Shown piece by piece: positions 12,799 to 61,259 of a stretch of DNA of 64,000 nucleotides (position 1 is its first letter; every line of letters begins with the position of its first letter). Origin of the DNA: an uncultured Paraprevotella sp. (GTDB taxonomy: Bacteria; Bacteroidota; Bacteroidia; Bacteroidales; Bacteroidaceae); assembly GCA_944321365.1 (NCBI GenBank), contig CALULA010000004.1:42907-106906 (forward strand), written 5' to 3'. A program made the position numbers and the translations under genes. The notes under the pieces were generated by a model. The model did no database searches and was not told where the DNA came from. It saw nothing but the letters and a program-made list of their open reading frames with translations.

Positions 12799-12916
12799 AT
12801 GCGGAAAGGGCACGGATTTCTTGCGCAAGATTTGTTCCGGTCTTGCGCAATACCGGAATGTTTTTTGCGCAACACTTGTTTCGGTTTTCCGCATGACGGA
12901 AAGCAGTCGTGCGTAG
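12799..12916. repeat. 22-bp-period TTGCGCAA-like palindrome array (locus A)
   Basis: Cores at 12799 atgcggaa, 12821 ttgcgcaa, 12843 ttgcgcaa, 12865 ttgcgcaa, 12887 ttccgcat, 12909 gtgcgtag. Confidence 0.85.
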
Positions 12917-12920
12917 GGCT

Positions 12921-12966
12921 TAAAGTAAACCTCCCCCGCATACGGGCAAACCGGGTGCGGGGGAGG
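12921..12966 (-). terminator. Intrinsic terminator after hppA
   Basis: CCTCCCCCGCA...TGCGGGGGAGG stem with a T-rich tail on the minus strand. Confidence 0.75.
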
Positions 12967-12993
12967 TGGCATTTCAGGCCGTCTGGCCGCGTG

Positions 12994-15198
12994 TCAGAAC
13001 AGACTCCAGGAGACGGTCAGCCCTGCCATGACGATAGCCACCATGGACATCAGTTTGACCAGGATGTTCAGACTCGGACCGGAAGTATCTTTGAACGGGT
13101 CGCCCACGGTGTCGCCCACCACGGTGGCGCGGTGCACTTCGCTGCCTTTTCCGCCCAGATGGCCTTCCTCAACGTATTTCTTCGCATTGTCCCACGCACC
13201 GCCGGAATCGGCCATGAAGATGGCCAGTACGAAACCGGCTGACAGACCGCCTACGAGCAGGCCGAGCACGCCCGGCACGCCGAAGATCAGTCCCGTGGCT
13301 ACAGGGGCGATGATGGCCAGCAGCGACGGGAACACCATTTCGCGCTGCGCCCCTTTCGTGGAAATCTGTACGCAACGGGCGTAGTCCGGTTCGGCCTCAC
13401 CCGTCAGGATGCCCTTGATTTCGCGGAACTGCCGGCGCACTTCTTCCACCATGTGGGCTGCCGCACGCCCCACGGCGTTCATCGTCAGACCGCAGAACAG
13501 GAAGGCCATCATGCTGCCGATGAACATGCCGGAGAGCACGGTGGGGTTCATGAGCGTCACGTTGTAATAGCTCATGAAGTCGGTGAACGACGCTTCATGT
13601 ATGGGCAGCAGGGAGCCGTCCGGCATCTGGAGCGTGGTCTCTCCCAGACGGGTCAGCCCGATGCGTATCTCTTCGATGTAGGATGCCAGCAGTGACAGTC
13701 CGGTCAGTGCGGCCGAGCCTATGGCAAAGCCCTTGCCCGTGGCGGCGGTGGTGTTGCCCAGCGAGTCCAGCGCATCGGTGCGTTTGCGCACCTCTTCGCC
13801 CAGACCGCTCATCTCGGCGTTGCCGCCCGCATTGTCTGCTATGGGTCCGTAGGCGTCAGTAGCCAGCGTGATGCCCAGCGTGGACAGCATGCCCACGGCG
13901 GCTATGCCGATGCCGTAGAGGCCCATGCTCACGTTCGTCAGGTCGAAACCGGCGGCCAGCCAGTAGGACAGGATGATGCCTGCTACCACGGCGATAACCG
14001 GTATGGTGGTGGACACCATGCCCAGCCCGATGCCGGAGATGACGACGGTGGCCGGACCGGTCTTGCCGCTTTCAGCCAACTGGCGGGTGGGGCGGTAAGA
14101 CTGCGAGGTGTAGTATTCTGTGGAACGTCCGATGATGATGCCCACCAGCAGTCCGACGATAACCGCAAAGGAGATGTTCAGCCAGTTGTCTATCTGCAGC
14201 GTCCATAAGATAAGGAAGGTGGCGACGACTATCAGGGCGGAACTGAGGTTCGTGCCGGTGGACAGCGATTGCAGGAGTTGTTTCATGCCGGCGTCCTCTT
14301 TGGTGCGTACGGAGAAGATGCCTATGATGGACAGCAGGATGCCTACGGCGGCGATGAGCATCGGGGCGATGACGGCCTTGAACTGCATGTCCGTGTCGCC
14401 GCTCGCCATGAAAGCTGCCGCACCGAGGGCCGAAGTGGCCAGAATGGAACCGCAGTAGGACTCGTAGAGGTCGGCTCCCATGCCGGCCACGTCGCCCACG
14501 TTGTCGCCCACGTTGTCGGCAATGGTGGCCGGGTTGCGCGGGTCATCTTCCGGGATGCCGGCCTCCACCTTGCCCACAAGGTCGGCTCCCACGTCGGCAG
14601 CCTTGGTATAGATGCCGCCGCCCACGCGGGCGAACAGGGCCTGCGTGCTGGCTCCCATGCCGAAGGTGAGCATCGTGGTAGTGATCATGCAGAGCTTGGC
14701 TCCCGGAGCGTCAGCCGTAGAGGGGACGAACGTGTCCAGCAGGATGTACCAGAACGAGATGTCCAGCAGACCGAGTCCTACGACCACCAGTCCCATGACG
14801 GCACCGCTGCGGAAGGCAATGCGCAGACCTTTGTTGAGCGAGGTGCGCGCCGCGTTGGCCGTCCGTGCGGAGGCGTAGGTAGCTGTTTTCATACCGAGGA
14901 ATCCGGAGAGGCCGGAGAAGAAGCCGCCGGTGAGGAAAGCCACCGGCACCCATGAGTTCTGCAGGTTGAAGCCGTAGGCCATGACAGAGAAAATCAGGCA
15001 TAGCACGATGAACACGATGCCCACCACCTTGTACTGTTGTTTCAGATACGACATGGCGCCCTGGCGCACGTGTGATGCGATTTTCCGCATTTGCGCAGTG
15101 CCTTCGCTTTCTTTCATCATCTGCTTGTAGAAGAACCAGGCCAGCAGCAGGGCCAACAAGGATGATACGGGTACCATCCAGAAGAGGAGATGTTCCAT
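12994..15198 (-). CDS. hppA: Membrane-bound pyrophosphatase, K+-dependent, Na+,H+-pumping subfamily
   Basis: [35 protein letters not shown] (K+-dependent Ala), [14 protein letters not shown]; promoter at 15228-15235. Confidence 0.97.
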
Positions 15199-15333
15199 GG
15201 TTGTTTAACGTTAATTTAAAGTTCACCCAAAGTTACGGAAAAGATGTAAAGTGACGGCCCCCCGCAAACCCTTTTTCTGTTATTTATACACTTTTTATCG
15301 TTTGCCCGCACAATCGGGTGGGACAGGGTATGG

Positions 15334-15372
15334 AAAAAGGGCTGCAAAACACCCCGAAGATGCCCTGCAGCC
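15334..15372 (-). terminator. Intrinsic terminator of the lipoprotein-OMP operon
   Basis: GGGCTGCA...TGCAGCCC stem preceded by an A run on the plus strand. Confidence 0.6.
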
Positions 15373-15394
15373 CTGATGAAGATGGGAAATTGTT

Positions 15395-16069
15395 TCAGAA
15401 ATTCAATCCGGCCCGCAGGCTGAACGTGTTGAAGCGGGCTTCCGGAGCCATCTTGTTGAAGTCTATGCCGTAGCCGATGCCGAAGTTATACTGTCCGTAG
15501 TCGGCGGTGATGCCGATCTGCCAGCCGGCCTGGAAGCGTTTCCAGTCGCAGCCGTCCTCACCGTACACGCTGTAGGAGTCCGATGCCGTGTTCCCTTCCA
15601 CGCCGGCCTCATACTTCTCTTTTCCCAACAGTCCGAGGCGCAGGTAGATGCCGGTGTAAGGTTTGAGGGCCAGCTTGTCGTTGATGCTGATTTTATAGAC
15701 TACGTTGGCCGGGATGTACAGTCCGAGCAGGTTGTGCGAGGTCTTCAGCGTGATGTTTCCCTCCGAACTGTCGAAGCTGTGACGCGAGAAGCTCAGACCG
15801 CCTCCGGCTTCCACGAAGAGCGGCAGCCGCTTGCTGATGTTCCAGGCCTGCACGTAGCTGACGGTGAGTCCGTTGAATCCCTGTTTCAGGTCGCTGTCGT
15901 CGCTGGTGGACTTCAGTATGGAGCGGTCGTAAGCCAGCCGCAGGCCTCGCCATGTGGAGCGGTCGCTGTCGGTGAGTGTGCTTTTAGTCTTTTCTACGAA
16001 CTGGGCGTGCAGCAGGGTCTGTCCGCACAGGAGGCAGACCAGCAGGAAAAATATTCTTGAAGTTTTCAT
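15395..16069 (-). CDS. Small outer-membrane beta-barrel (PorT/OmpA-like porin family)
   Basis: Signal peptide, alternating beta-strand pattern, C-terminal aromatic residue (RAGLNF). Confidence 0.8.
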   Translation of the reverse strand: MKTSRIFFLLVCLLCGQTLLHAQFVEKTKSTLTDSDRSTWRGLRLAYDRSILKSTSDDSDLKQGFNGLTVSYVQAWNISKRLPLFVEAGGGLSFSRHSFDSSEGNITLKTSHNLLGLYIPANVVYKISINDKLALKPYTGIYLRLGLLGKEKYEAGVEGNTASDSYSVYGEDGCDWKRFQAGWQIGITADYGQYNFGIGYGIDFNKMAPEARFNTFSLRAGLNF

Positions 16070-17541: not shown

Positions 17542-17629
17542 GTTTTTATGACAAATTATGCAAATTTTCTTTTGTTTTTCTGAAAAAAAGTAAGAAAAGG
17601 ACGCGCGGGGATGTTGACGTAGGGAGCAA

Positions 17630-17668
17630 AAGAAAGGGCTGTTTCCAAGAGAGGATGGAAACAGCCCG
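17630..17668 (-). terminator. Intrinsic terminator after valS
   Basis: GGGCTGTTTCCA-agagagga-TGGAAACAGCCC stem with an A run upstream on the plus strand. Confidence 0.8.
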
Positions 17669-17695
17669 ACGGGCGGACCGTGAAGAGGTTCGGCA

Positions 17696-20344
17696 TTATT
17701 TCTTCAGACGGGCGAGGCTTTCCTTCAGCGCCGCAATCTTGCTTTCGGCGTCCGACTGCTTCTTGCGCTCCATGGCCACCACGGCTTCGGGGGCGTTGGC
17801 CACGAAACGTTCGTTGGAAAGCTTCTTCAGAACGCCTGCCAGAAAACCTTCCAAGTGCTTCAGCTCTGCCTCCTGACGGCTGATTTCGGTTTCCACGTCT
17901 ATCAGGCTACCGAGCGGCACGGCGTATTCGGTGGTCCCTACCATGAACGAGGCCGAGCCTTCGCCTTTCTGTTCTACTGTTGTGACGCTCTCCACATTGG
18001 CCATTTTCTTCGTGATGCAGGCAAAGGCTGCTTCGGGATCGTTGCCCACCACCTCCAGTGTCAGCACCTCTTTCTGGGCGATGTTTTTCTGGTTGCGCAC
18101 CATGCGTACGCCTGCCACGATGTCCTTCACATTTCCGATATGGGCTATCAGTCCGGCGTCTTCCGCAGTGGGGGCTGCCGTGTGGAGCGGAGAAATCATG
18201 ATGCTCTCGCCCGGCAGACGGTCGTAGAGGTGCTGCCACAGCTCTTCGGTGATGAAAGGCATGAACGGATGGAGCAGTTTCAGCAGCGTGTCGAAGAACG
18301 ACAGCGTCTGGTCGTAAGTCGTTTGGTCGATGGGTTGCCCGTAGGCCGGTTTGATCATTTCAAGATACCAGCTGGAGAACTCGTCCCAGAACAGCTTGTA
18401 CACGGCCATCAGAGCTTCGCTCAGACGGTATTTGCCGAACAGGTCGGCCACTTCGGCAGCGGTGGTGCGCAGCACGGCGGCGAACCACTTAGTGGCAATG
18501 GCCGAACTCTCCGGTTGGGCCATGTCGGCCGTCTGCCAGCCTTTCACGAGGCGGAAAGCATTCCATATCTTGTTGTTGAAGTTGCGTCCCTGCTCGCAGA
18601 GTGCGTCATCGAACAGAATGTCGTTTCCGGCAGGAGCGGAAAGCATCATGCCCATGCGCACGCCGTCTGCTCCATAGCGTTCTATCAGTTCGAGCGGGTC
18701 GGGGCTGTTGCCGAGCGACTTGCTCATCTTGCGTCCCAGCTTGTCGCGCACGATGCCCGTGAAGTAGACGTCCTTGAACGGCATCTTGCCTTCGTATTCG
18801 TAGCCCGCCATGATCATGCGTGCCACCCAGAAGAAGATGATGTCCGGACCGGTGACGAGCACCGATGTGGGATAGTAGTAGCTGATTTCCTCGTTGCCGG
18901 GGTTGTTGATGCCGTCGAACAGCGAGATGGGCCAGAGCCAGCTGGAGAACCACGTGTCGAGCGCGTCCTCGTCCTGACGCAGGTCGGCCAGTGTCAGTGC
19001 CTCGTTGCCCGTCTTTTTCCTGGCCATTTCAAGGGCCTTTTCCGCAGTTTCGGCCACCACGAAGCCTCCTTGCGGCAGGTAGTAGGCCGGGATGCGGTGT
19101 CCCCACCACAGTTGGCGGCTGATGCACCAGTCCTTGATGTTCTCCATCCAGTGGCGGTAAGTGTTCTTGTATTTTGCAGGATAGAACCGGATTTCGTCCT
19201 TCATCACCGGTTCCAGTGCGATTTTGGCCAGATGCTCCATCTTGAGGAACCACTGCATGGAGAGCTTCGGCTCGATGGGCACATTGGTGCGCTCGGAGAA
19301 ACCTACCTTATTATTATAGTCTTCTGTCTTCTCCATCAGACCGGCTTCCTGCAGGTCGATGGCAATCTGACGGCGCACGTCGAAACGTTCCATTCCGACA
19401 TATAAGCCGGCGGCTTCACTGATGGTGCCGTCATCGTTGAAGATATCTATGGAGGGCAGGTTGTGCTTCTCGCCCAGCATATAGTCATTCACATCGTGGG
19501 CCGGGGTCACTTTCAGACAGCCCGTTCCGAACTCGATGTCCACATAGTCGTCTTCAATGACCGGAATGCAGCGGTTCACCAAGGGTACGATGACCCGTTT
19601 GCCCTTCAGCCACGTGTTCTTCGGGTCGGCCGGGTTGATGCACATCGCCGTGTCGCCCATTATTGTTTCGGGACGGGTGGTGGCCACCACTGCGTAGCGT
19701 CCGCTGCCGTCGGGCTGTCCGTTTTCACCGGCCACCATATATTTCAGGTAGTACAGCTTGCTGTGCTCTTCCTTGTAGATCACCTCTTCGTCCGACAGGG
19801 CGGTCAGGGCCTTGGGGTCCCAGTTCACCATGCGTACGCCGCGGTAGATCAGTCCTTTCTCATACAGGTCGCAAAATACCTTGATGACGCTCCGGCTGCG
19901 AGCCTCGTCCATGGTGAATGCCGTGCGGTCCCAGTCGCAGCTGGCACCCAGCCGGCGCAGCTGTTTGAGGATGATGCCGCCATGTTCGTCTGTCCACTCC
20001 CAGGCATGTTTGAGAAATTCCTCGCGGCTCAGGTCGGTCTTCTTGATGCCTTTCTCGGCCAGGCGGTTCACCACCTTGGCTTCTGTGGCGATGGAAGCAT
20101 GATCAGTGCCGGGCACCCAGCAGGCGTTCTTCCCGTCCATACGTGCACGCCGGATCAGAATGTCCTGAATGGTCTCGTTGAGCACGTGCCCCATGTGGAG
20201 AACGCCCGTCACGTTGGGAGGCGGTATGACGATAGTATAAGGTTCGCGTCCGTCGGGTTTAGAACTGAACAGCTTGTTGTCGAGCCAGTACTGATACCAT
20301 TTGCCTTCCACTTCGGCAGGGTTGTATTTGCTTGCTAATTCCAT
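17696..20344 (-). CDS. valS: Valine--tRNA ligase
   Basis: [13 protein letters not shown] (HIGH), [21 protein letters not shown]-terminal coiled-coil arm; promoter at 20383-20390. Confidence 0.99.
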
Positions 20345-20468: not shown

Positions 20469-20564
20469 TTGCGGAAGACCGGCAGAAGTCTTGCGGAAAA
20501 CCAACTGAAGTCTTGCGGAAAACCAACTGAAGTCTTGCGGAAGACCGGCGGAAGTCTTCCGCAA
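20469..20564. repeat. 22-bp tandem repeat array (locus B)
   Basis: Four full units ttgcggaa(g/a)acc...gaagtc at 20469, 20491, 20513, 20535, then ttccgcaa at 20557. Confidence 0.95.
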
Positions 20565-20642: not shown

Positions 20643-23600
20643 TTATTTCCATCCTCCGCCCAAGGCTTTGTAGAGCTGGATGAGAGTCACCTGCTTGTCG
20701 CACACGGCATTGCTCAGCGACACCTGGGCGTCGAAGTAACTGCGCTGGGCGTCCAGCAGGTCCAGATAGCCGATCACTCCGTTGATGTATTGCAGCTGTG
20801 CCAGTTGCACGGCGGTATGTGCGGCCTCCGCCAGTTGGCGTCGCGACTCGTAGATGTCCTTCATCTTATTGAAACTGGTGATGGCGTCGTGCACTTCCCT
20901 GAATGCCTGTAGGACTACTTTCTCGTAGTGGGCCACAGCACCTTCGTAGGCCGCCTTGCTGGCTTTCAGCCGTGCCCGGTTTTTCCCGACGGAGAACAGC
21001 GGGCTGAGCAGTCCGCCTGCCACATAAGTGTAGGGCGACTTCAGCACATCCTTCAGCGCGTCGCTCTCTGTTCCCAGCGTGGCGGTCAGTGATAGTCGCG
21101 GAAACATGTTGGTGTAGGCCTGTCCTATGGCGGCATGGGCGGCGATGAGCTGCTGTTCGGCCTGCCGGATGTCGGGACGGCGTTCCAGCAGTGTCGAGGG
21201 AATGCCCATGGGCAGTGTGTCGGGCAGGTTGATTTCTGTGGGCAGAATGCTCCGTCTGATGGCATGAGGGTAGTCGCCGACGAGCAGTGAGATCTCGCTC
21301 TCCTTCAGGGCAATCTGTTGTTCCAGGTCGGGAACCATCGTGGCTGTTCTGGCCAGTTCCACTTGTGCCTGCTGATAGACGATTTCGGAGGTGAGTCCGC
21401 CCTTGAACCGGATTTCGGCCAGCCGGACACTTTCGCGGCGTGCATCAAGGGTGTGGCGCACGATGGTCAGTTCGTTGTCCAAGGCCATCAGTTCAAAATA
21501 GGCTTGTGCCACTTGGGCGACGATTGCCATACGTATGGCGCGGCAGTTCTCCACCGAAGCCAGAAATTCGGCCATGCTGCGGTCGCGTGCCCAACGCAGG
21601 TTGCCCCAAAGGTCAAGCTCCCACGAGATGTTGGCTTTCAGTCCGAATTCCGGGTCGGGGTCCAGATTGTGTCCTCCGTAATTGGTGGCTTCGCGGTTGG
21701 CTCCGGCCTCGGCGGTGGCCTGCGGGAACAGGTTGGCCACGTCTATGCGTCTCAAGGCTCCCAGCTCACCCATGCGCGAGGCGGCCTGCTTCAGGTCTTT
21801 GTTGTAGGTAAGGGCCTGCGTGAGCAATTGCTGCAGCGTGGTGTCGTTGTACAGTTCCCACCACGACAGGTCGGCTATGGAGGCCGAGTCGGTCTGCAGG
21901 CTGTCCGTCTGCTGTGGCAGGCGGAGGTCCGGACGGACATAGTGTTGGCCGAGCTGACAGGACGACAGGCCCAGACCGGCGGCGAGCAGCAGCATGCCGG
22001 TTTTCACGGATTTGTGGGCCAGCTTCTTGCGGGCCTTGTAGATCATGACGAAGAAGAACGGTACCAGCAATATGCCGACGGCCACCGCTGTTATCATGCC
22101 GAAGAATACGCCCGTGCCGATGGCGCGGCGGCTGGCAGAGCCTGGTCCCTCGGCGATGACCATGGGGAGCATGCCCAGGATGAAGGCCAGTGAGGTCATC
22201 AGGATGGGGCGGAAGCGGAGCCGGGCCGCATGCAGGGTGGAGGCCACCAGCTCGCCGCCGCGGTCTACTTCGTCCTTGGCGAACTCTACAATCAGAATGG
22301 CATTCTTGGCAGCCAGTCCGACCAACATCACCAGCCCGATCTGGAAGTAGATGTCGTTCTCCAGTCCGCATACCGCCACGCCGACATAGGCACCGAGTGC
22401 GGCTACAGGTAGCGACAGCAATACCGCGACAGGCACGGTCCAGCTCTCATACAGGGCCGAGAGGAAGAGGAATACGAACAGGAACACCAGGGCCAGGACC
22501 AGTCCGGTCTGCCCGCCGGCTTGTTTCTCCTGATAAGACAGTCCGCTCCATTCCACGCCGATGTTATCCGGCAGATGCTCGCGGGCAATCTGCTCGATGA
22601 TGTCCATGGCCTGTCCGGAACTGTAACCGTCGGCGGCGTTGCCGCGGATGACGGCACTGTTGAACATGTTGAAGCGTTTGATGCTGCCCGGTCCTGTGGT
22701 GTAGGAGGTAGTTCCCAGCGACGTAAGCGGTATCATGGAGCCGTCCTCTCCGCGGACAAAGAAGAGGTTGATGTTCTCCGGATGGGCGCGGTAGGGAGCT
22801 TCGGCCTGGATGTATACGCGGTAGATGCGGTTGAACATGTTGAAGTCGTTCACGTAGACCGACCCTGTGTAGGCTTTCATGGTGGAGAACACGTCCGACA
22901 TTGGCACGCCGGACAGGCGCACCTTGTCGCGGTCCACGTCGAAATAGAGCTGCGGAATCTCGGCCTGCAGCGAGGACGACACGCCGGAAAGCTCCTTGCG
23001 CTGCGCGGCATAGTGCAGCAGGGTGTCGGTGGCCTGCACCAGATTGTCGAACGTGGCATCGCCGCGGGCCTCCAGCTGCATCTCAAAGCCGCCGGAGGTG
23101 CCCAGTCCGGGGATGACCGGCGGTGTGGACAGATAGACTTTGCATTCGGGATATTCCGTGAAGTGTGCTTTCACCTCGGCCATGATGTTGTCTATTGTCG
23201 TGTGGTCGCGTTCCTTATAAGGCTTCAGAATGACGGTCAGTTCGCTGCGCGACTGGCTGGTGCCCACGCGAGGGCTGGTGCCGGTGACGTTCTGCACATA
23301 CTCTACGGCAGGATGCTTCATCAGGTAGCGGACGGCCCGGTCTGTGACCTGGCGCGTGCGTTCCAGCGTGGCACCTTCCGGCAGTTCCAGCTCCACCTTG
23401 AAATATCCCTGGTCCTCCACCGGCAGGAAGCTGGATGGCACAAGGCGGTGCAGAATGAAAATCAGGCCGATGATGAGACAGAAGTTCAGAATGATTCTTT
23501 TGGGATGGGCCAGCACGTGCTCTATACCTTTTATATAATGGTTGTTGCCGGAGGCCAGCCATTGGTTGATTTTGCGGAACACGACGTTTTTGGGACGGTC

Positions 23601-25109
23601 GGGATCGGCGGGTTTCAGGATGAGCGAGCACATCACCGGACTGAGGGTCAGGGCCACGATGGTGGAGATGAGCACCGAAACGACGATGGTGATGGTGAAC
23701 TGCCGGTAGAGCTGCCCCGTGATGCCCGGCAGGAAGCTCACGGGCACAAACACGGCGGCCAGCACCAGCGAGGTGGCTATCAAGGCACCGGCCAGTCCGT
23801 TCATGGCTTTCTTGGTGGCTTCGTAGGCCCCGATGCGTTCCTGCTGCATGATGTGTTCCACATTTTCCACTACCACGATGGCGTCGTCCACCACGATACC
23901 GATGGCCAGGATGAGGCCCAGCAGGGTGAGCATGTTGAGCGAGAAGCCGAAAATCAGCATGAATCCGAACGTGCCGATCAAGGAGATGGGCACGGCGATG
24001 ACCGGTATGAGTGTGGCGCGCCAGCTTTGCAGGGAAAGGAACACCACGAAGATGACCAGCACCAAAGCCTCGAACAGCGTCTTGTAGACCTCATGGATGG
24101 ATTCCGATATGTAGGTAGTCATGTCGAACGGCACTTCATACGTCAGTCCTTCAGGGAAATTCTTGCTGATGTCTTCCATGGCGTTCTTCACGTTGTCGGC
24201 CACTTCCATGGCGTTGGCTCCCGGCAGCATGTAGATGCCCAGCACGGCGGCATTTCCGCCGTTGATGCCGCTCTCGGTGTTGTACGACTGTGCTTCGAGC
24301 GACACACGCGCCACATCGCGCAGACGGATGAGCGAGCCGTCGGCATTGGCCCGCAGAACAATCTCCTCGAATTGCCCGACAGTGGACAGACGTCCCTTGG
24401 TGGAGACGGGAATGGTGATGTCCAGTCCGCTGACCGGTTGCTGTCCGAAGACGCCGGCTGCCGACTCGCGGTTCTGGTCCTTCAGCGCGTTCTGGATGTC
24501 CTGGACGGTCAGGCCGAAGTTGGCCAGCTTGTCGGGCTGCACCCAGATCTGCATGGCGTAGTAGCGGCTGCCGATGTTGGACACGCGCCCCACGCCCGGA
24601 ATGCGCCGCAGCACGTCCACCACGTTGATGGTGGCGAAGTTGCTCAGGTAGATTTCATCGAACTTCGGGTCGTCCGAGGTCAGACAGATGGTCATCAGCT
24701 GGCTGGGGGCCTGTTTCTCTACCGAGATTCCGTTCTGTATCACTTCGGCAGGCAGGCGCGATTCGGCCAGCTTCACGCGGTTCTGTATCTCTACGGCGGC
24801 CAGGTCGGGGTCGGCAGAGATGTCGAAGGTCACGGTGGCCGAGAAACCGCCGGAGTTGGAGCTGTTGGACTCCATGTAGAGCATGCCCGGCGTGCCGTTC
24901 AGCTCCTGCTCGATGGGCGTGGCCACGGCCTGCGACACCGTGAGCGCACTGGCTCCCGGATACGATGCGCTGATCTTGACCACCGGAGGAGTGATTTGCG
25001 GATATTGGTCTATGGGCAGCAGGGTCAGTCCGATGAAGCCCACGATGACTATCAGGATGGAGATGACCGCAGAGAGTACCGGACGGTCGATGAAATAGGT
25101 CACTTTCAT
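20643..25109 (-). CDS. RND efflux permease (AcrB/HAE1) fused in-frame to a TolC/NodT outer-membrane factor
   Basis: AIGIVVDDAIVVVEN, KNAILIVEF, RFRPILMTSLAF (AcrB); then LGLSSC lipobox, SWELDLWG and YINGVIGYLDLLDAQ...LYKALGGGW (OMF). Confidence 0.92.
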   Translation of the reverse strand: MKVTYFIDRPVLSAVISILIVIVGFIGLTLLPIDQYPQITPPVVKISASYPGASALTVSQAVATPIEQELNGTPGMLYMESNSSNSGGFSATVTFDISADPDLAAVEIQNRVKLAESRLPAEVIQNGISVEKQAPSQLMTICLTSDDPKFDEIYLSNFATINVVDVLRRIPGVGRVSNIGSRYYAMQIWVQPDKLANFGLTVQDIQNALKDQNRESAAGVFGQQPVSGLDITIPVSTKGRLSTVGQFEEIVLRANADGSLIRLRDVARVSLEAQSYNTESGINGGNAAVLGIYMLPGANAMEVADNVKNAMEDISKNFPEGLTYEVPFDMTTYISESIHEVYKTLFEALVLVIFVVFLSLQSWRATLIPVIAVPISLIGTFGFMLIFGFSLNMLTLLGLILAIGIVVDDAIVVVENVEHIMQQERIGAYEATKKAMNGLAGALIATSLVLAAVFVPVSFLPGITGQLYRQFTITIVVSVLISTIVALTLSPVMCSLILKPADPDRPKNVVFRKINQWLASGNNHYIKGIEHVLAHPKRIILNFCLIIGLIFILHRLVPSSFLPVEDQGYFKVELELPEGATLERTRQVTDRAVRYLMKHPAVEYVQNVTGTSPRVGTSQSRSELTVILKPYKERDHTTIDNIMAEVKAHFTEYPECKVYLSTPPVIPGLGTSGGFEMQLEARGDATFDNLVQATDTLLHYAAQRKELSGVSSSLQAEIPQLYFDVDRDKVRLSGVPMSDVFSTMKAYTGSVYVNDFNMFNRIYRVYIQAEAPYRAHPENINLFFVRGEDGSMIPLTSLGTTSYTTGPGSIKRFNMFNSAVIRGNAADGYSSGQAMDIIEQIAREHLPDNIGVEWSGLSYQEKQAGGQTGLVLALVFLFVFLFLSALYESWTVPVAVLLSLPVAALGAYVGVAVCGLENDIYFQIGLVMLVGLAAKNAILIVEFAKDEVDRGGELVASTLHAARLRFRPILMTSLAFILGMLPMVIAEGPGSASRRAIGTGVFFGMITAVAVGILLVPFFFVMIYKARKKLAHKSVKTGMLLLAAGLGLSSCQLGQHYVRPDLRLPQQTDSLQTDSASIADLSWWELYNDTTLQQLLTQALTYNKDLKQAASRMGELGALRRIDVANLFPQATAEAGANREATNYGGHNLDPDPEFGLKANISWELDLWGNLRWARDRSMAEFLASVENCRAIRMAIVAQVAQAYFELMALDNELTIVRHTLDARRESVRLAEIRFKGGLTSEIVYQQAQVELARTATMVPDLEQQIALKESEISLLVGDYPHAIRRSILPTEINLPDTLPMGIPSTLLERRPDIRQAEQQLIAAHAAIGQAYTNMFPRLSLTATLGTESDALKDVLKSPYTYVAGGLLSPLFSVGKNRARLKASKAAYEGAVAHYEKVVLQAFREVHDAITSFNKMKDIYESRRQLAEAAHTAVQLAQLQYINGVIGYLDLLDAQRSYFDAQVSLSNAVCDKQVTLIQLYKALGGGWK

Positions 25110-26620: not shown

Positions 26621-26704
26621 TTATCTCTAACCTAAAGATATATATCTTTAGCCTGGACATATATATCCTTAGGCTGGAGATGCATATCCTTAGCCTGAGG
26701 ATAG
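26621..26704. repeat. Four 21-bp degenerate tandem repeats (ATATCyTTAGsCTG...)
   Basis: Units start at 26621, 26642, 26663, 26684; contains the perfect palindrome TAAAGATATATATCTTTA (26633-26650). Confidence 0.85.
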
Positions 26705-31846: not shown

Positions 31847-33709
31847 TCAGAACGGGAAAAGCAGCGGCAGCGTGAACACCATCACTATGCCCATGATGAT
31901 TTGCAGCGGCAGGCCTACCTTTACGTAGTCCATGAACGTGTACTGTCCGGCGGGCATGACCAGTGCGTTGGGCGGCGTGGAGAACGGCGAGGCGAAACAC
32001 ATGCTGGCCGCCACCGTCACGGCAAAGAGGAACGGCACGGGACTGACGCCCAGTTGTTGTGCGCTCTGCAGGGCGATGGGGGCCAGCAGTACGGCAGTGG
32101 CCGTGTTGCTGATGAACATGGTCATCAGCGAGGTGGTGAAGTAGATGCCCGCCATGAGTGCTATCGGTCCGTAGGCACCCAGCCCGCTGACCAGTCTGTC
32201 GGAGATGAAAGCCGACGTGCCTGTCTTTTCCAATGCCAGCGACATGGGCAGCATGGCGGCAATCAGCACGATGCTTTCCCAGTTGATGGTTTTGTAGGCC
32301 GCCTCGACGTTGCGGAAGCAACCCGTGAGCACCATCAGCAAGCCCGCGATCATCACTGCCGTGACGGGGTCCACAGGAATGAAGTCAAACACCATCATGA
32401 CTACCATCAGCAACATGATGACGGCTGCCAGCGGTGCCTTGTAGTCCAGCGTCACTTTGGCCGCTTCGTCCAGCGGCTGTCCCAGTACGACCCATTCCTC
32501 GTCCTCGCTGCTCAGCCGGGCTATGTCGTTCCATGTGCCCTGCACCAACAGGACATCCCCGGACTGGATGCGGGTGTCGCCGAGCTGCTGCAGCAGATAT
32601 GCGGTCTTGCGCCGTATGCCCAGTATGTTCACGTTGTATTTGTCGCGGAATCCGGCTTCCTTGATGGTCCGGTTGATGAGACGGGAAGAGGGCATGAGCA
32701 CGATTTCCGCTATGCCGATGTCATAGAAGTCCAGTGACTGTCCGGCATGGGAGGCCTCTTCGGTTGTGTGGCCGTCCACCAGCACCAGTCCGCATTCTTT
32801 TGCCAAGGTGTCGATATGTTCTATCTCTCCTTTCACGTAGAGTATGTCTTCGGCTTGCAGCACGGTGTCCGGTTCGGCCAGTTTCTGCGTAATGGTTTTC
32901 AGGAAACGGTGCTGCGAGGCATCACCGCGCCGTACCTCCAGAACGTTCACACCGTATTTGTGCCGGATGTCCAGCTCGATGATGGTCTTTCCTTTCAAGG
33001 GTGAATGCGCCGGAACTTTCAGGCGGAACAGATTGTCGGACAGACCGTACTCCTTCACCAGTTCCTTGAGCGATTTGCCTGCGTGGCCGGTCCCGTCGCT
33101 TGTTTTCTTCTTTTTGGAGAGGAACAGCTTGCTGAGCGGAAGCAGGACTACTATACCCACAGCGATGCAGATGAGGCCCACCGGCAAGAAGGAGAAGAAC
33201 GACAGTGCAGGGTAGCCGGCTCCGGTCAGCGTGTCCTGGATGACAAGGTTGGGCGGCGTACCGATGAGGGTCATCATGCCGCCCATGCTGCTGGCAAAGG
33301 CCAGGGGCATGAGCAGCCGGCTGGCGGACATGTTGGTGTTGGCTGCCAGGCTGACCACGATGGGAAGCATCAGGGCCACTGTCCCGGTGTTGCTGACAAA
33401 AGCACCGATGGCCGCCGTGACGATCATGACCAGAAGGAACAGGCGCAGCTCGCTTTTTCCCGCCAGTTTCAGGATGCGTGCGCTGATCATCTTGGCCAGT
33501 CCGGTCTGGAAGATGGCTCCGCCCACGACGAACAGTCCGATCATCATGATGACTACGGAGCTGGAAAAGCCGGAAAGGGCCTCTTCCGGAGTCAGGATGT
33601 GGAAGATGAGCAGTGCCACCAGTGCGCAGAGTGCTACGATATCTGAGCGGAGCTTGCCATTGATGAAAAAGATGGCGGAGAGCACCAGGATGCAAATTGT
33701 TGTCAGCAT
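31847..33709 (-). CDS. SLC13/CitMHS-type permease with two TrkA-C domains
   Basis: FVSNTGTV, LIGTPPNLV, two soluble TrkA-C segments, FISNTATAV, FASPFSTPPNALV. Confidence 0.93.
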   Translation of the reverse strand: MLTTICILVLSAIFFINGKLRSDIVALCALVALLIFHILTPEEALSGFSSSVVIMMIGLFVVGGAIFQTGLAKMISARILKLAGKSELRLFLLVMIVTAAIGAFVSNTGTVALMLPIVVSLAANTNMSASRLLMPLAFASSMGGMMTLIGTPPNLVIQDTLTGAGYPALSFFSFLPVGLICIAVGIVVLLPLSKLFLSKKKKTSDGTGHAGKSLKELVKEYGLSDNLFRLKVPAHSPLKGKTIIELDIRHKYGVNVLEVRRGDASQHRFLKTITQKLAEPDTVLQAEDILYVKGEIEHIDTLAKECGLVLVDGHTTEEASHAGQSLDFYDIGIAEIVLMPSSRLINRTIKEAGFRDKYNVNILGIRRKTAYLLQQLGDTRIQSGDVLLVQGTWNDIARLSSEDEEWVVLGQPLDEAAKVTLDYKAPLAAVIMLLMVVMMVFDFIPVDPVTAVMIAGLLMVLTGCFRNVEAAYKTINWESIVLIAAMLPMSLALEKTGTSAFISDRLVSGLGAYGPIALMAGIYFTTSLMTMFISNTATAVLLAPIALQSAQQLGVSPVPFLFAVTVAASMCFASPFSTPPNALVMPAGQYTFMDYVKVGLPLQIIMGIVMVFTLPLLFPF

Positions 33710-33806: not shown

Positions 33807-33880
33807 TTGCACGGAACTGCCGGTGTTCATGCGCAAAGACGCCATCGTTTTTCCGCAAGACTGTGTCTGTTCTTGCGGAA
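33807..33880. repeat. 22-bp-period palindrome array (locus C)
   Basis: Cores at 33807 ttgcacgg, 33829 atgcgcaa, 33851 ttccgcaa, 33873 ttgcggaa. Confidence 0.75.
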
Positions 33881-33996: not shown

Positions 33997-34488
33997 CTAT
34001 TTATTGCGGGCGGATGGGGGTGCGGGCGGCGGTGCCTGTTTTTTTGCCGTCCGGTTGCTGAAGTTCCGCAGCATGCGCCGGTGGAATCTGTCTTCCGCCT
34101 TCATGGCCTTGTGCACTTTCTTGGCGGGAATGGTCTTGCACATTTTCCGGTAGTAAGTGTCCTCCACTTCGGCCAGCTCTATCTTCAGTTTGTTGATCTC
34201 GCATATAAGATTATAATATTCCTTGTCTGCGGCATTGGCCGGAAGCGTCCTCTTTTTCAGCTCGCGTATTTGCCAGTTGATGCCGCGCTGTTTGTCGTGC
34301 ATCTCGTGGAAAATCGGGAAGAATGCGGTGGACTCCGCAGGAGTCAGGCAGGCTTCTTGAACGATGAAGCTCTCTAGTTTCCTGACAAAGTCCTGTGGCG
34401 AGAACGATTTCCTGCGCGGTTGTGCGCTGACAGATTGGAATGTATATGCCAGAAAGAGACAAAGCAGAGTGATTATCGTTTTATACAT
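33997..34488 (-). CDS. Exported helical protein, Spy/CpxP-like
   Basis: Signal peptide; LTPAESTAFFPIF motif; predicted all-helical. Confidence 0.65.
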   Translation of the reverse strand: MYKTIITLLCLFLAYTFQSVSAQPRRKSFSPQDFVRKLESFIVQEACLTPAESTAFFPIFHEMHDKQRGINWQIRELKKRTLPANAADKEYYNLICEINKLKIELAEVEDTYYRKMCKTIPAKKVHKAMKAEDRFHRRMLRNFSNRTAKKQAPPPAPPSARNK

Positions 34489-40520: not shown

Positions 40521-40638
40521 TGCCGGAATGGTGCGGATTTTTTTGCGCAAGACTTTGTGCGGTCTTGCTCATGATGGCCTCCGTTCTTGCGCAAGACCGG
40601 TCGGGGTGTTGCCGGACTGTGGTCTGACCGGTGCGGGG
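40521..40638. repeat. 22-bp-period palindrome array (locus D)
   Basis: Cores at 40521 tgccggaa, 40543 ttgcgcaa, 40565 ttgctcat, 40587 ttgcgcaa, 40609 ttgccgga, 40631 gtgcgggg. Confidence 0.8.
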
Positions 40639-40807: not shown

Positions 40808-41785
40808 ATGGGAAAGATTAATTGTATAGGTATTCTGACGTCTGGAGGCGATGCGCCGGGCATGAACGCGGCTATCCGTGCGGTCACGCGGGCCGGCATC
40901 GCAGCCGGATTGAAGGTGAAAGGTATTTACAGGGGGTATGAAGGATTGATTAATAATGAAATCAGAGATTTCACCACGGAGGATGTGAGCAACATCATCC
41001 AGCGGGGCGGTACGATATTGAAGACGGCCCGGAGCAAGGAGTTCATGACGCCCGAAGGCCGGAAAAAGGCTTATGACAATATGGTGGAGCAGGGGGTGGA
41101 CGCGCTGGTGGTCATCGGCGGAAACGGCTCCCTGGCGGGAGCGCGCATCTTTGCCGAAGAGTTCGACGTGCCGTGTATCGGTCTGCCGGGTACCATCGAC
41201 AATGACCTGAGCGGGACGGACTCGACCATCGGTTACGACACGACGCTGAACACCATCGTGCAATGTGTGGATAAGATACGCGATACGGCCACCTCGCACG
41301 AGCGCATTTTCTTCATCGAGGTGATGGGACGCGATGCCGGCTTCCTGGCGCAGAACAGTGCCATTGCAAGCGGGGCCGAGGCGGCTATCATTCCGGAGGA
41401 CAGCACCAATGCCGACCAGCTGGAGCAATTCATCAGCCGCGGCATCCGTAAGAGCAAAAGTTCCAGTATGGTCATCGTTTCGGAAAGTCCGAAGTGCGGT
41501 GCCATGTATTATGCAGACCGGGTGAAGACCGAATATCCGGAGTTCGACGTACGGGTGTCCATTCTCGGTCATTTGCAGCGTGGCGGATCGCCCAGTGCTT
41601 CCGACCGCATTCTGGCTTCCCGCCTTGGAGTGGGGGCCATCAATGCCTTGCGCGAAGGACAGCGCAACGTGATGATCGGCATTAGGAACGACGAGGTGGT
41701 CTACGTGCCGTTCTGCAACGCCATCAAGAGCGATAAGCCCATTAAGAAAGAACTGATCAACGTGCTGGGCATCTTGTCTATCTGA
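40808..41785 (+). CDS. pfkA: ATP-dependent 6-phosphofructokinase
   Basis: [40 protein letters not shown]; promoter at 40778-40785. Confidence 0.98.
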
Positions 41786-45890: not shown

Positions 45891-45942
45891 TTGCGCAAAA
45901 CGTTCTGACGGTTTGTGCAAGCCATGCGGACATGTTGCGTCC
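45891..45942. repeat. 22-bp-period palindrome array (locus F)
   Basis: Cores at 45891 ttgcgcaa, 45913 ttgtgcaa, 45935 ttgcgtcc; extra atgcggac at 45924. Confidence 0.65.
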
Positions 45943-57004: not shown

Positions 57005-57005
57005 C

Positions 57006-58022: not shown

Positions 58023-58120
58023 TGAGGACATGGGAAGCGTTAGTTTTTTTGGGGAAAAGTTGTGTCACACCGGATTTTTTTATGTAATTTTGTCCGTAAT
58101 AGCATTTTAGGAACGAATAT

Positions 58121-59365: not shown

Positions 59366-59870
59366 ACTGTGCGGCATATCGGCATTGGTGTCGGGAATGA
59401 TGGTGTTGGCGGCTTGTTCCATTTCTTACAAGTTCAATGGAGCGTCTATTGACTACACCAAGACGAAGACCATTCAGATTTCACAATTCCCCATTCGTTC
59501 GGCATACGTCTGGGCCCCCATGCAGGCTATTTTCAACAATCAGCTGACAGATATCTATGCACGCCAGACAAAGTTGCAGCAGGTGAACCGTAACGGCGAC
59601 TTGCAGCTGTCGGGCGAGATCGTGGAGTACAGTCAGTTCAATAAAGCTGTTTCGGCTGACGGTTATTCTGCCCAGGTTCAGTTGAAAATGACAGTTAATG
59701 TGCGCTTTGTGAACAATGCCAATCATGATGAGGACTTTGAACAGAAGTTCAGTGCAACGACTCAGTATGACTCTTCTCAGCAGCTGACTGCCGTTCAGGA
59801 GGAGCTGGTTACGCAAATGGTGGAGGATATAGTAGATCAAATCTTTAACGCCACAGTGGCAAATTGGTAA
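59340..59870 (+). CDS. lptE: LPS assembly lipoprotein LptE
   Basis: LAAC lipobox; ASIDYTKTKTI, LQLSGEI, DIVDQIFNATVANW. Confidence 0.85.
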   Translation: MAWTRRICRLCGISALVSGMMVLAACSISYKFNGASIDYTKTKTIQISQFPIRSAYVWAPMQAIFNNQLTDIYARQTKLQQVNRNGDLQLSGEIVEYSQFNKAVSADGYSAQVQLKMTVNVRFVNNANHDEDFEQKFSATTQYDSSQQLTAVQEELVTQMVEDIVDQIFNATVANW

Positions 59871-59877
59871 GAGGCGT

Positions 59878-60621
59878 ATGGAGTTGAGTTTGTCTGAGTA
59901 TATCAAACATCCGGAGCTGTTGGACAAGAACTCTCTTGGAAGACTGCAGAAGTTGGTGGCTGATTTCCCTTATTTCCAACCGGCCCGGTTGCTTTACTTG
60001 CGTAATCTTTATCAGTTGCATGACGCTGCATTTGATAAAGAGTTGCGGCGTGCTGCTTTTTTCCTGTCAGACCGTAAGGCACTCTTTTTGTTGATTGAGG
60101 GCATGCATTACCGGTTGGAACCGCAGAAGAAGCATCAGCCCAAGGCCGTGGCTTCAGGCGGGGAAGCGGACCGCACCTATTCGCTTATCAGCGATTTTCT
60201 GGCTAATCTGCCTGAAGAGAAGCCCCGACGTCCCAAGCCTGTAGATGCTTCCACTGATTATATGGCCTATCTGCTGCAAAATGAGGAACTGCCCGATGTG
60301 ATGGCGTCTGTTCCCCGCATGCAGCATCAGGAGCTCATCGATGATTTTATAGGGCAGGGAGATAAGCGAATTGTGCTGACTCAGCGTTCCGATGAGGAGA
60401 TGCAGCTGCCGGAACTTCCTGAAGAGAATGAAAATGCGGAAGAAGAGGACTATTTCACGGAGACGTTGGCCAAAATCTATATAAAACAAGGCCGATATAC
60501 GAAAGCTATGGAAATAATCAGGCGTTTAAGCTTGAAATATCCAAAAAAAAATCGTTACTTTGCAGACCAGATTAGATTTTTGGAGAAATTGATCATAAAT
60601 AATAAGAATAAAAAAGCGTAA
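59878..60621 (+). CDS. TPR-like hypothetical protein
   Basis: PYFQPARLLYL; TETLAKIYIKQGRYTKAMEIIRRLSLKYPKKNRYFADQI helical repeat. Confidence 0.75.
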   Translation: MELSLSEYIKHPELLDKNSLGRLQKLVADFPYFQPARLLYLRNLYQLHDAAFDKELRRAAFFLSDRKALFLLIEGMHYRLEPQKKHQPKAVASGGEADRTYSLISDFLANLPEEKPRRPKPVDASTDYMAYLLQNEELPDVMASVPRMQHQELIDDFIGQGDKRIVLTQRSDEEMQLPELPEENENAEEEDYFTETLAKIYIKQGRYTKAMEIIRRLSLKYPKKNRYFADQIRFLEKLIINNKNKKA

Positions 60622-60623
60622 AA

Positions 60624-61046
60624 ATGTACACATTATTGGTTATTCTCATCGTTATTGTTGCGATTCTGATGTGTCTGATCGTACTCATTCAGGAATCCAA
60701 AGGCGGCGGTCTGGCATCCAGTTTTTCTGCCTCCAATCAGATCATGGGCGTGCGGAAGACTACAGATCTGGTGGAGAAGATTACGTGGGGACTGGCTGCG
60801 GCCATGGTGGTGTTCAGCGTGATGTCGGTGTTTTTCATCCCCACACTTCATACTGAAGAGTCTATCATGATGAAGTCTGCCACAGAGCAAAAGGCTGTCA
60901 ATTCCAATAACTTGCCGGGATTCGGTGCCAGTCAGCCGCAAACGAATGCAACAGGACAGAGCGCTCCCGCGCAAGGGACGTCTGCCGCTCCGGCCGCAGC
61001 AGGTGATGCTGCTCCGGCTCAGAATGCCGCGACGCCTGCACAGTAA
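60624..61046 (+). CDS. secG: Preprotein translocase subunit SecG
   Basis: VLIQESKGGGLASSF, DLVEKITW, two TM helices, Ala/Pro/Gln-rich tail. Confidence 0.95.
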   Translation: MYTLLVILIVIVAILMCLIVLIQESKGGGLASSFSASNQIMGVRKTTDLVEKITWGLAAAMVVFSVMSVFFIPTLHTEESIMMKSATEQKAVNSNNLPGFGASQPQTNATGQSAPAQGTSAAPAAAGDAAPAQNAATPAQ

Positions 61047-61185
61047 ACAGCCTGGTCTGTCAGGGAATTGGACTACAGGTCGTGAGAATAAGACATTGTC
61101 GCCTTTCTGCAGAGAGGTGATGCGTTATAAAGGAGGAAGATGCCGCAAGGTTTCTTCCTTTTTTTGTATGTATATGGTATTTTCT

Positions 61186-61259
61186 TTGCGCAAGGATGCC
61201 AGCGGTCTTGCGCAAGAATGCAGATGAGCTTGCGCAAAACCGGATAAGGTATAGCGCAA
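61186..61259. repeat. 22-bp-period palindrome array (locus E)
   Basis: Cores at 61186, 61208, 61230 (all ttgcgcaa) and 61252 tagcgcaa. Confidence 0.9.

What the first reader, a model, noticed from the sequence alone, without database searches (positions are those of the whole stretch)
12799..61259. Family of six intergenic arrays with TTGCGCAA-like palindromes at an exact 22-bp period
Arrays at 12799-12916, 20469-20564, 33807-33880, 40521-40638, 45891-45942 and 61186-61259 each have 3-6 cores (TTGCGCAA/TTGCGGAA/TTCCGCAA, often extended to TCTTGCGCAAGA) exactly 22 bp apart, with mostly variable 14-bp spacers. That is about one per 10 kb, in convergent, divergent and tandem gaps alike, so the pattern does not look promoter-specific. 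Inference: 22 bp is about two helical turns, placing sites on one DNA face, as expected for cooperative binding by a nucleoid-organising or DNA-bridging protein. A REP/MITE-like selfish repeat is the alternative. The spacers are too short for CRISPR and no cas genes are present.
Basis: partly seen in the sequence, partly recalled or inferred. Interest (0 to 1): 0.72.

Follow-up and report, generated by a model that had tools for sequence, protein, structure and literature searches.

The report
Evenly spaced phased palindrome arrays
This gut Bacteroidales genome carries about 200 short arrays of the palindrome TTGCGCAA repeated exactly every 22 bases, placed at the ends of transcription units about every 10-12 kb and conserved in a distant sister species, which suggests docking sites for an unidentified DNA-binding protein and matches nothing I found in the literature.

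Summary
Genome-wide, TTGCGCAA-like cores pair at 22 bp 397 times, against about 1-2 at neighbouring spacings. A PWM detector finds 201 arrays of 3-8 units and none in shuffled DNA. Units are about 18-20 bp dyads whose arms do not covary, so they read as double-stranded DNA sites, not hairpins.

Arrays avoid coding sequence (6% genic) and promoters. They occupy 47% of eligible convergent gaps, usually beyond the terminator, and are spaced far more evenly than chance (CV 0.55 versus 0.92).

A sister species (about 79% nucleotide identity) has arrays in 11 of 12 orthologous gaps. Core identity is 90% and the phase is kept, but spacers are randomised. Twenty-nine congeners and 400 other Bacteroidota species lack the arrays, while a Kiritimatiellia MAG carries a young MITE-like version.

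Best reading: arrays that spread as dispersed repeats and are now retained as cooperative docking platforms for a dimeric protein acting on DNA at transcription-unit ends. The protein is unknown. RAYT, HU-HIG, ORF6N and m5C methylase all failed phyletic tests.

A purely selfish REP/BIME-like repeat is the main rival. I found no published description.

The parts
6350..6401 (.). Three-unit array (TTGCGCAA, TTGCGCAA, TTCCGCAA at 22 bp) inside the Lnb gene 5624-6835(+), in the linker between its two domains. It is 66 bp, or 22 codons, and in frame.
   Evidence: PWM score 55.5; Lnb_N at aa 26-166, 5TMH_Lnb at aa 258-397; the array covers about aa 242-259
12799..12916 (.). Array of 4 strong units (12821-12894) plus weak outer units. 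It lies in the convergent gap between 12135-12575(+) and 12994-15198(-), about 180 bp beyond the terminator hairpins at 12566-12623.
   Evidence: An orthologous array is present in G009 with unrelated spacers and is absent in the other congeners.
20469..20564 (.). Five-unit array (TTGCGGAA x4, then TTCCGCAA) whose spacers are still similar (86% matches), so the units duplicated recently. It lies in a tandem gap, 79 bp downstream of the 3' end of 20643-25109(-) and 125 bp upstream of the start of 17696-20344(-).
   Evidence: (TRF period 22, 4.5 copies)
33807..33880 (.). Three-unit array (strong part 33829-33880) in the tandem gap between 33997-34488(-) and 31847-33709(-). An orthologous array is present in G009.
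   Evidence: (G009 C1:12624 maps to G000 C4:76735)
40521..40638 (.). Array with two perfect cores (40543, 40587) and a degenerate middle core. It lies in the divergent gap between 38486-40273(-) and the phosphofructokinase gene 40808-41785(+). The orthologous gap in G009 has no array.
45891..45942 (.). Weakest member: two good cores (TTGCGCAA, TTGTGCAA) and one poor third core. It lies in a divergent gap and falls below the PWM threshold, so its membership is doubtful.
61186..61259 (.). Four-unit array in the convergent gap between 60624-61046(+) and 61308-61901(-). It follows a hairpin plus T-run at about 61133-61168 that I identified by eye.

Best explanation
The arrays are a lineage-restricted, genome-wide family of about 200 docking platforms for a sequence-specific homodimeric DNA-binding protein. 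Each 22-bp unit is an 18-20 bp dyad (consensus CGkTyTTGCGCAArAmCG). The exact 22-bp (two-turn) spacing puts 3-6 dimers, most often 4, side by side on roughly one face of the helix, so they can bind cooperatively as a 66-130 bp nucleoprotein complex. The complexes sit on DNA that is mostly untranscribed, beyond the terminators at transcription-unit ends and especially between convergent genes, about once every 10-12 kb. There they most plausibly act on the DNA itself as an insulator, a supercoil-domain barrier or a chromosome-structuring anchor. The arrays probably first spread as a dispersed or mobile repeat and grew by unit duplication, and the host has since retained them. Shown: anatomy, exact phase, location, even spacing, and conservation of cores and phase. 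Inferred: protein binding, cooperativity and the function. The protein is not identified.
For: The 22-bp spacing is exact and unique (397 pairs versus about 1-2). There are 201 arrays and 0 in shuffled DNA. The consensus is a dyad, and arm complementarity equals the column-shuffled expectation at all 8 arm positions (z<2, 726 units), so each half-site is read independently, as on double-stranded DNA. Arrays are excluded from coding sequence and concentrated at transcription-unit ends: convergent 76, tandem 71, divergent 18, truly genic 12; 47% of eligible convergent gaps are occupied; in tandem gaps they lie nearer the upstream 3' end. Where a terminator is detectable it lies before the array in 53 of 73 cases (for the window). 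Spacing is even: CV 0.55 versus 0.92 under a null restricted to eligible gaps and weighted by gap type (minimum 0.73 in 2000 simulations); gaps under 4 kb are 4% versus 21%. Across species with about 79% nucleotide identity, 11 of 12 G009 arrays with collinear flanks have an array in the orthologous G000 gap. Core identity is 90% versus 39% for spacers and 34% for the outer 8 nt, and the phase is kept. The same core and period recur in other Bacteroidota and in Kiritimatiellia with lineage-specific flanks. In four low-copy genomes the array lies 71-285 bp from a DNA-binding (HU-HIG) gene, which shows that such arrays can be linked to a DNA-binding protein gene.
Against: No binder was found. 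HU-HIG is absent from array-rich G009 and from the Kiritimatiellia genomes but present in array-free congeners. ORF6N shows the same mismatch. There is no m5C methyltransferase in G000. The very patchy distribution (2 of 31 congeners, 0 of 400 other Bacteroidota species), the young MITE-like family in Kiritimatiellia, the 610-bp dispersed element and the turnover between G000 and G009 (6 G000 array loci, 7 array calls, are empty in G009, against 9 array calls with a G009 counterpart) all fit a selfish repeat.
Confidence: 0.55

Rival explanations
1. The arrays are a purely selfish dispersed repeat, REP/BIME- or MITE-like. They spread by an unidentified transposition or insertion mechanism into neutral safe havens, mainly gaps beyond terminators, and have no function for the host.
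For: The distribution is patchy, including within the genus and across phyla. The Kiritimatiellia MAG has uniform 4-unit copies with conserved end modules. G000 has a 10-copy 610-bp element carrying an array. There is presence/absence turnover between G000 and G009. Nine of the 12 genic arrays have exactly 3 units (66 bp, in frame) against 35% overall (binomial p about 0.006 by hand), as expected for insertions filtered by selection. The bias toward 3' ends and convergent gaps resembles REP/BIME.
Against: There is no RAYT/Y1 transposase in a 99.9%-complete genome. Ordinary arrays have no conserved flanks, terminal inverted repeats or target-site duplications, and about 185 arrays share no spacers. 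Cores and exact phase are kept at orthologous sites while spacers are randomised, which neutral decay does not predict. Indels are essentially absent (3 pairs at 21 bp and 1 at 23 bp versus 397 at 22 bp). The even spacing is not expected from random insertion unless there is target immunity.
Confidence: 0.27
2. The arrays act as RNA or single-stranded DNA hairpins, for example as 3'-UTR stabilisers or bidirectional terminators like REP hairpins. Each palindrome, or adjacent palindromes, would fold into stems.
For: The units are palindromic and adjacent units could pair. The arrays lie downstream of genes. Arm complementarity is weakly in excess in the Kiritimatiellia and Flavobacteriia/Cytophagia units (z 2-3).
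Against: In G000 there is no covariation at any of the 8 arm positions across 726 units. An exact 22-bp period is not needed for hairpins. Detectable terminators mostly precede the array (53 of 73), so most arrays lie outside the transcripts. Rfam finds nothing.
Confidence: 0.08
3. The arrays are operator sites of an ordinary transcription-factor regulon that controls the adjacent genes.
For: Phased palindromes are typical of cooperative repressors. In low-copy genomes some arrays lie upstream of genes: 83 bp upstream of phd-parE in L021, and upstream of HU-HIG genes in L010 and L044.
Against: Divergent (promoter-containing) gaps are the least occupied class (10% versus 47% for convergent gaps). 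In tandem gaps arrays lie nearer the upstream stop codon. The neighbouring genes are functionally unrelated. About 200 evenly spaced sites is not how a regulon is laid out.
Confidence: 0.05

Closest known systems
REP / BIME elements of Enterobacteria and Pseudomonas (with RAYT transposases; survey in PMC3733652)
   Same: Both are hundreds of short extragenic palindromic units, often in tandem clusters. Both lie at the 3' ends of transcription units and between convergent genes, are patchy among species, and occasionally occur in frame inside genes.
   Different: REPs are 20-40 bp imperfect hairpins with a GTAG or CGTC tag and are linked to RAYT. Here the units are 8-20 bp dyads without arm covariation, on a strict 22-bp phase with free spacers. 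There is no Y1 transposase. Spacing along the chromosome is even, and cores and phase are conserved at orthologous sites.
Iteron and centromere arrays of plasmids and phages (RK2, R6K and pPS10 iterons on about 22-bp spacing; the four dyad iterons of the lambda origin bound by O protein; F sopC 43-bp repeats with inverted-repeat cores). This comparison is from my own knowledge.
   Same: Both have several phased sites at whole helical turns, bound cooperatively by dimers. Typical arrays have about 4 units, with conserved cores.
   Different: Iterons and centromeres are one or a few loci next to the gene for their binding protein. Here there are about 200 chromosomal loci with no linked gene, and viral contigs are essentially negative (1 hit).
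HU-HIG-adjacent periodic palindrome arrays of Bacteroidota. This class comes from an earlier AI note, not from the literature. HU-HIG proteins are described in PMC5499826.
   Same: The core (TTGCGCAA) and 22-bp period are the same. I confirmed that 4 of 11 arrays in low-copy Bacteroidota genomes lie 71-285 bp from an HU-HIG gene.
   Different: In the focal clade the link fails. G009 and the Kiritimatiellia genomes have arrays but no HU-HIG gene, array-free congeners do have one, and the two HU-HIG genes of G000 are not next to arrays.
DNA uptake sequences (USS/DUS) and Chi/KOPS-type chromosomal words. This comparison is from my own knowledge.
   Same: Both are over-represented short words distributed more evenly than chance along the chromosome and often found in terminator regions.
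   Different: Those are single oriented words at about 1 per kb or per 5 kb, not phased arrays of palindromes. No uptake or translocase link was tested here.

Membership tests
REP/BIME | Units are imperfect palindromes that fold as stem-loops, so their arms covary | tested here: not met
   In 726 G000 units arm complementarity equals the shuffled expectation at all 8 positions (z<2)
REP/BIME | Conserved GTAG or CGTC tag at one end of the unit | tested here: not met
   The unit logo is a symmetric dyad with no GTAG. CG at -5/-4 reaches only about 47% and is mirrored on the other arm
REP/BIME | An associated RAYT (Y1/IS200-like) transposase in the genome | tested here: not met
   PF01797 gives 0 hits in G000, which is 99.93% complete
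REP/BIME | High-copy extragenic location biased to 3' ends and convergent gaps | tested here: met
   201 arrays: convergent 76, tandem 71, divergent 18, truly genic 12
MITE | Terminal inverted repeats, target-site duplication, and copies similar along their whole length | tested here: not met
   In G000 there is no conserved flank motif, about 185 arrays share no spacers, and filled-versus-empty sites show no TSD. The Kiritimatiellia copies do have conserved end modules, so the test is inconclusive for that lineage.
Replication iterons / plasmid centromeres | One or a few loci adjacent to the gene for the cognate initiator or partition protein | tested here: not met
   There are about 200 dispersed loci. 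No recurrent neighbouring gene was found in G000 or in the Kiritimatiellia loci. Viral contigs give 1 hit.
CRISPR | Repeats of about 23-48 bp with spacers of about 26-72 bp, at one or a few loci with cas genes | tested here: not met
   The unit is 22 bp in total (8-bp core, 14-bp spacer), with 3-8 units at about 200 loci. I did not search for cas genes.
HU-HIG-linked arrays | An HU-HIG gene adjacent to the array, or at least present in every array-bearing genome | tested here: not met
   The two HU-HIG genes of G000 are more than 2 kb from any array. There is none in G009, G061 or G062, and only sub-cutoff matches in G063 and G064; the profile of array-adjacent proteins finds none in G009 or G061-G064. 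The feature is met in L010, L011, L044 and L049.

The most novel reading that the evidence does not exclude
The arrays are sequence-encoded chromosomal domain boundaries. An unidentified dimeric protein assembles on each array at transcription-unit ends and divides the chromosome into units of about 10 kb, for example as supercoil-diffusion barriers, loop anchors or transcription insulators. This would be a hard-wired counterpart of the roughly 10-kb topological domains that are thought to be stochastic in E. coli. The system would have been acquired horizontally and spread through the genome as a mobile array.
Probability: 0.2. Interest if true: 0.9.

Novelty: new variant of a known kind. Interest (0 to 1): 0.74.

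Why it matters
Bacterial chromosomes are divided into roughly 10-kb topological domains, and their boundaries have never been tied to a DNA sequence. This genome offers about 200 defined, conserved and evenly spaced candidate boundary elements. They have a simple testable grammar (an 8-bp core on an exact 22-bp phase), natural controls (29 array-free congeners and one array-bearing sister species) and a young mobile version in another phylum. Identifying the reader protein would either reveal a new kind of chromosome-organising system in a major group of gut bacteria, or define a new class of dispersed repeat that differs from REP/BIME in not forming hairpins and not depending on RAYT. Either way, annotation pipelines currently miss this feature entirely.

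Tried and rejected
1. Hairpin or cruciform selection: rejected for G000, because the arms do not covary.
2. REP/RAYT mobilisation: no Y1 transposase is present.
3. HU-HIG as the binder: this was a lead from an earlier AI note. Adjacency is real in four low-copy genomes, but the phyletic pattern contradicts it in the focal clade, using both the Pfam model and a custom profile.
4. ORF6N as the binder: its phyletic pattern does not match.
5. m5C methylation of GCGC: G000 has no PF00145 gene.
6. Phage or plasmid iterons: viral contigs give 1 hit.
7. A known RNA family: Rfam finds nothing in the window or in the 610-bp element.
8. A different-core 22-bp family in congeners: none found in about 400 kb from three species.
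9. A recurrent gene next to arrays in the Kiritimatiellia loci or next to the largest G000 arrays: none.
10. G000 proteins compared by tblastn with array-bearing loci of other phyla: only housekeeping matches.
11. Conserved flank motifs: none.
12. Target-site duplications at filled versus empty sites: unreadable at this divergence.
13. Arrays as synteny-break hotspots: 44% of breakpoints lie near an array, but this equals the expectation if both simply prefer large gaps at transcription-unit ends.
14. Literature searches for the motif, for phased arrays or for a binder: nothing relevant.
Full report
**Observation.**
- A motif scan of the window shows in-phase TTGCGCAA-like cores at each of them.
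- The array at 45891-45942 is marginal, with only two good cores.
- The window is C4:42907-106906 of a 2.74-Mb, 28-contig, 99.9%-complete genome with about 52% GC.

**The period is real and unique.**
- Genome-wide, pairs of cores (<=1 mismatch) number 397 at 22 bp, 243 at 44, 85 at 66 and 18 at 88. Other spacings give 0-6, with 3 at 21 bp and 1 at 23 bp.
- Chaining seeds gives 188 arrays.
- A symmetrised PWM detector gives 201 arrays of 3-8 units (3: 71, 4: 78, 5: 34, 6 or more: 18) and none in 1.6 Mb of locally shuffled sequence.
- The near-total absence of 21- and 23-bp neighbours, although spacers are randomised, means that indels within arrays are not tolerated.

**Anatomy.**
- The unit logo extends the 8-bp core to a degenerate dyad of 18-20 bp, CGkTyTTGCGCAArAmCG. 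Only about 2-4 positions per 22-bp unit are unconstrained.
- I tested whether the arms covary, as they would for hairpins. In 726 G000 units, Watson-Crick complementarity at each of 8 arm positions equals the column-shuffled expectation (z<2). Each half-site therefore drifts independently toward the consensus, which is the signature of a dimeric protein reading double-stranded DNA and not of a selected stem-loop.
- Some arrays have near-identical neighbouring spacers (20469-20564 in the window, 86% matches; C13:8711). So arrays grow by duplication of 22-bp units and the spacers then diverge.

**Location.**
- A crude dicodon gene caller gives 2014 genes and 89% coding. After correcting longest-ORF start artefacts, the 201 arrays fall as follows: convergent gaps 76, tandem 71, divergent 18, 5' ORF-extension artefacts (really intergenic) 15, truly genic 12, 3' tails 3, contig edges 6.
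- Occupancy of eligible gaps (>=120 bp) is 47% for convergent, 26% for tandem and 10% for divergent.
- In tandem gaps the array lies nearer the upstream stop codon (median 124 bp) than the downstream start (224 bp).
- Of 223 gene 3' ends facing an array, a strict terminator-like hairpin is detectable at 73. At 53 of these it lies between the stop codon and the array, a median of 81 bp before it, and terminator density is about 3 times higher before the array than after it.
- In the window, terminator hairpins at 12566-12623 precede the 12799 array.
- The arrays therefore sit at transcription-unit ends, mostly on untranscribed DNA, and not in promoters.

**Even spacing.**
- Inter-array gaps have a median of 11.0 kb and a CV of 0.55 (gamma shape 2.9).
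- Random placement gives a CV of 0.95.
- A stricter null places arrays only in real eligible gaps, weighted by gap type. It gives a CV of 0.92, with a minimum of 0.73 in 2000 simulations.
- Gaps under 4 kb are 4% of the total, against 21% expected and a minimum of 11% in the simulations.
- In the G009 sample the 14 gaps between arrays listed have, by my hand calculation, a mean of 17 kb and a CV of about 0.4, and none is below 9 kb.

**Phyletic distribution.**
- Exact phased pairs number 140 in G000 and 73 in one congener, G009. The other 29 congeners have none, and 30 further genomes of the same family or order have 0-1.
- None of 400 other Bacteroidota species (180 genera) has more than one pair.
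- An unbiased periodicity scan of about 400 kb from three array-free congeners found no dispersed 22-bp family with any other core.
- G009's contig lengths identify it as 'uncultured Paraprevotella sp. SRP141132_co1_113'.
- Elsewhere the same core and period occur with these counts of exact pairs: a Kiritimatiellia MAG 126, Bacteroidaceae RUI569 29, Reichenbachiella 15, a Cyclobacteriaceae MAG 10. Several other Bacteroidota and Kiritimatiellia genomes carry one or two arrays.
- The flanks are lineage-specific: G000 tcTTGCGCAAga, G009 ccTTGCGCAAgg, Kiritimatiellia aaTTnnnTTGCGCAAnnnAAtt.

**Conservation.**
- G000 and G009 share only about 79% nucleotide identity in alignable, mostly coding, DNA and are heavily rearranged.
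- Even so, 11 of 12 G009 arrays with collinear flanks have an array in the orthologous G000 gap.
- In nine intergenic orthologous pairs, core identity is 165/184 (90%), spacer identity is 39%, and identity in the outermost 8 nt is 34%, which is close to random. The phase and approximate unit number are kept.
- The one orthologous array inside a coding sequence also keeps its spacers.
- This pattern is what purifying selection on cores and phase predicts. Neutral decay of selfish DNA does not predict it.
- There is also turnover. G009 has an array for 9 of the 16 G000 array calls with collinear flanks. The other 7 calls (6 loci) fall in empty G009 gaps, including the window array at 40521.
- Filled-versus-empty alignments show the arrays accompanied by 175-780 bp of extra intergenic DNA, with no readable target-site duplication.

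**Evidence for a mobile past.**
- In the Kiritimatiellia MAG the arrays are uniform. 26 of 34 have exactly four units, the arms come from a small vocabulary, and conserved end modules bound each copy (GTCAAATCCCCCCGACATCCGG ... CCCAAATCNCCCCGACACTTGAC). This looks like a young MITE-like family.
- In G000, spacer-similarity clustering finds only one true subfamily. About ten copies of a roughly 610-bp non-coding element (for example C1:41375-41987) are 70-75% identical to each other and carry a 6-7-unit array at their centre. One copy is absent from the orthologous G009 gap.
- The remaining roughly 185 arrays share neither spacers nor flank motifs.
- Nine of the 12 truly genic arrays have exactly three units (66 bp, 22 codons), against 35% overall (binomial p about 0.006 by hand).
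- The window example lies in the inter-domain linker of Lnb.
- The genome has no Y1/RAYT transposase.

**Search for the reader protein.**
- An earlier AI note suggested HU-HIG proteins. I confirmed that in four low-copy genomes from three orders (L010, L011, L044, L049) an HU-HIG gene (84-100 bits) lies 71-285 bp from the array. With 5-10 such genes per genome this is far more than chance would give.
- However, array-rich G009 and the Kiritimatiellia genomes have no HU-HIG gene by the Pfam model or by a profile of the four array-adjacent proteins. Array-free congeners do have one, and the two G000 copies are not next to arrays.
- The defining paper calls HU-HIG proteins enigmatic, rapidly diversifying and without conserved gene linkage (PMC5499826).
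- ORF6N, which neighbours one Kiritimatiellia array, and m5C methyltransferases also fail the phyletic test. G000 has no PF00145 gene at all.
- No gene recurs next to the arrays in the Kiritimatiellia loci or next to the largest G000 arrays.
- Viral contigs are essentially negative, and Rfam finds nothing.
- The literature searches found no description of such arrays and no protein reported to read this palindrome.

**Interpretation.**
- The data fit best a two-stage history. Arrays of phased dyad sites first spread as a dispersed repeat. The G000/G009 lineage has since retained them as cooperative docking platforms for a dimeric DNA-binding protein at transcription-unit ends.
- The even spacing of about 10-12 kb and the position beyond terminators point to a role on the DNA itself, such as insulation, a supercoil-domain barrier or chromosome structuring. 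That step is inference.
- A purely selfish REP/BIME-like repeat remains a serious rival. It explains the patchiness and turnover but not the conservation of cores and phase or the even spacing.
- RNA-hairpin and regulon explanations are unlikely.

**Verdict.**
- The closest known kinds are REP/BIME elements and iteron or centromere arrays, but the defining features of each were tested and not met. I therefore class this as a new variant of a known kind, with about a 20% chance that it is a categorically new, sequence-encoded chromosomal domain system.

Noticed in passing
G000 C1:41375-41987 (locus L141); also C4:117108-117675 (L142), C14:34732-35216, C25:11105-11591, C3:31764-32304, C8:13005-13440, C2:106244-106754, C2:204443-204925, C7:90962-91229, C19:26595-26961. 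All lie outside the window.: A non-coding dispersed element of about 610 bp, in about 10 copies that are 70-75% identical. It has a 6-7-unit TTGCGCAA-type array at its centre and conserved GTCAGC...hairpin-like modules on both sides, and it fills 800-1000 bp gaps. There is no Rfam hit and no long terminal inverted repeat. One copy is absent from the orthologous gap in G009.
   Followed up: partly
window 6350-6401; G000 genic arrays listed: Arrays that are truly inside genes are mostly exactly 3 units (66 bp, 22 codons): 9 of 12. The window case lies in the linker of an Lnb protein between its periplasmic and membrane domains. Another (C1:304612) is conserved, spacers included, in G009.
   Followed up: partly
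loci L001-L075 of Kiritimatiellia MAG LOHA37_bin.013 (G061): A uniform 4-unit element of about 130 bp with conserved, oriented end modules (GTCAAATCCCCCCGACATCCGG / CCCAAATCNCCCCGACACTTGAC). Its arms are drawn from about six 3-nt variants that combine independently on the left and right. It looks like a recently amplified MITE-like family. No linked gene was found.
   Followed up: partly
L021:204-277, L050:7125-7176: In Kiritimatiellia genomes with a single array, the array lies 83 bp upstream of a phd/yefM-parE toxin-antitoxin pair (L021) and 268 bp upstream of an ORF6N-domain gene (L050). These are contexts typical of mobile or defence islands.
   Followed up: partly
G000 versus G009, 389 kb sample: The two congeners are extensively rearranged, with 45 synteny breaks in 389 kb. 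44% of the breakpoints have a G000 array within 700 bp of an endpoint. This is roughly what is expected if both simply prefer large gaps at transcription-unit ends.
   Followed up: partly
L107:11803 (G001, array-free congener): A single 22-bp-phased triple of a different palindrome, GAGTACTC, with diverged spacers. It is the only such case in 200 kb.
   Followed up: no
G000 whole genome: There is no cytosine-5 DNA methyltransferase (PF00145) anywhere in the genome, although most congeners have 1-7.
   Followed up: no
G000 C7:137089-137220 and C6:141034-141140 (contig ends): Two contig ends carry the same array with the same flanks, and 6 arrays lie at contig edges. The arrays, or the repeats around them, may cause assembly breaks.
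   Followed up: no
window 26638-26697: An unrelated 21-bp tandem repeat (ATATATATCCTTAGCCTGGAC, 2.9 copies, 84% matches) reported by TRF.
   Followed up: no
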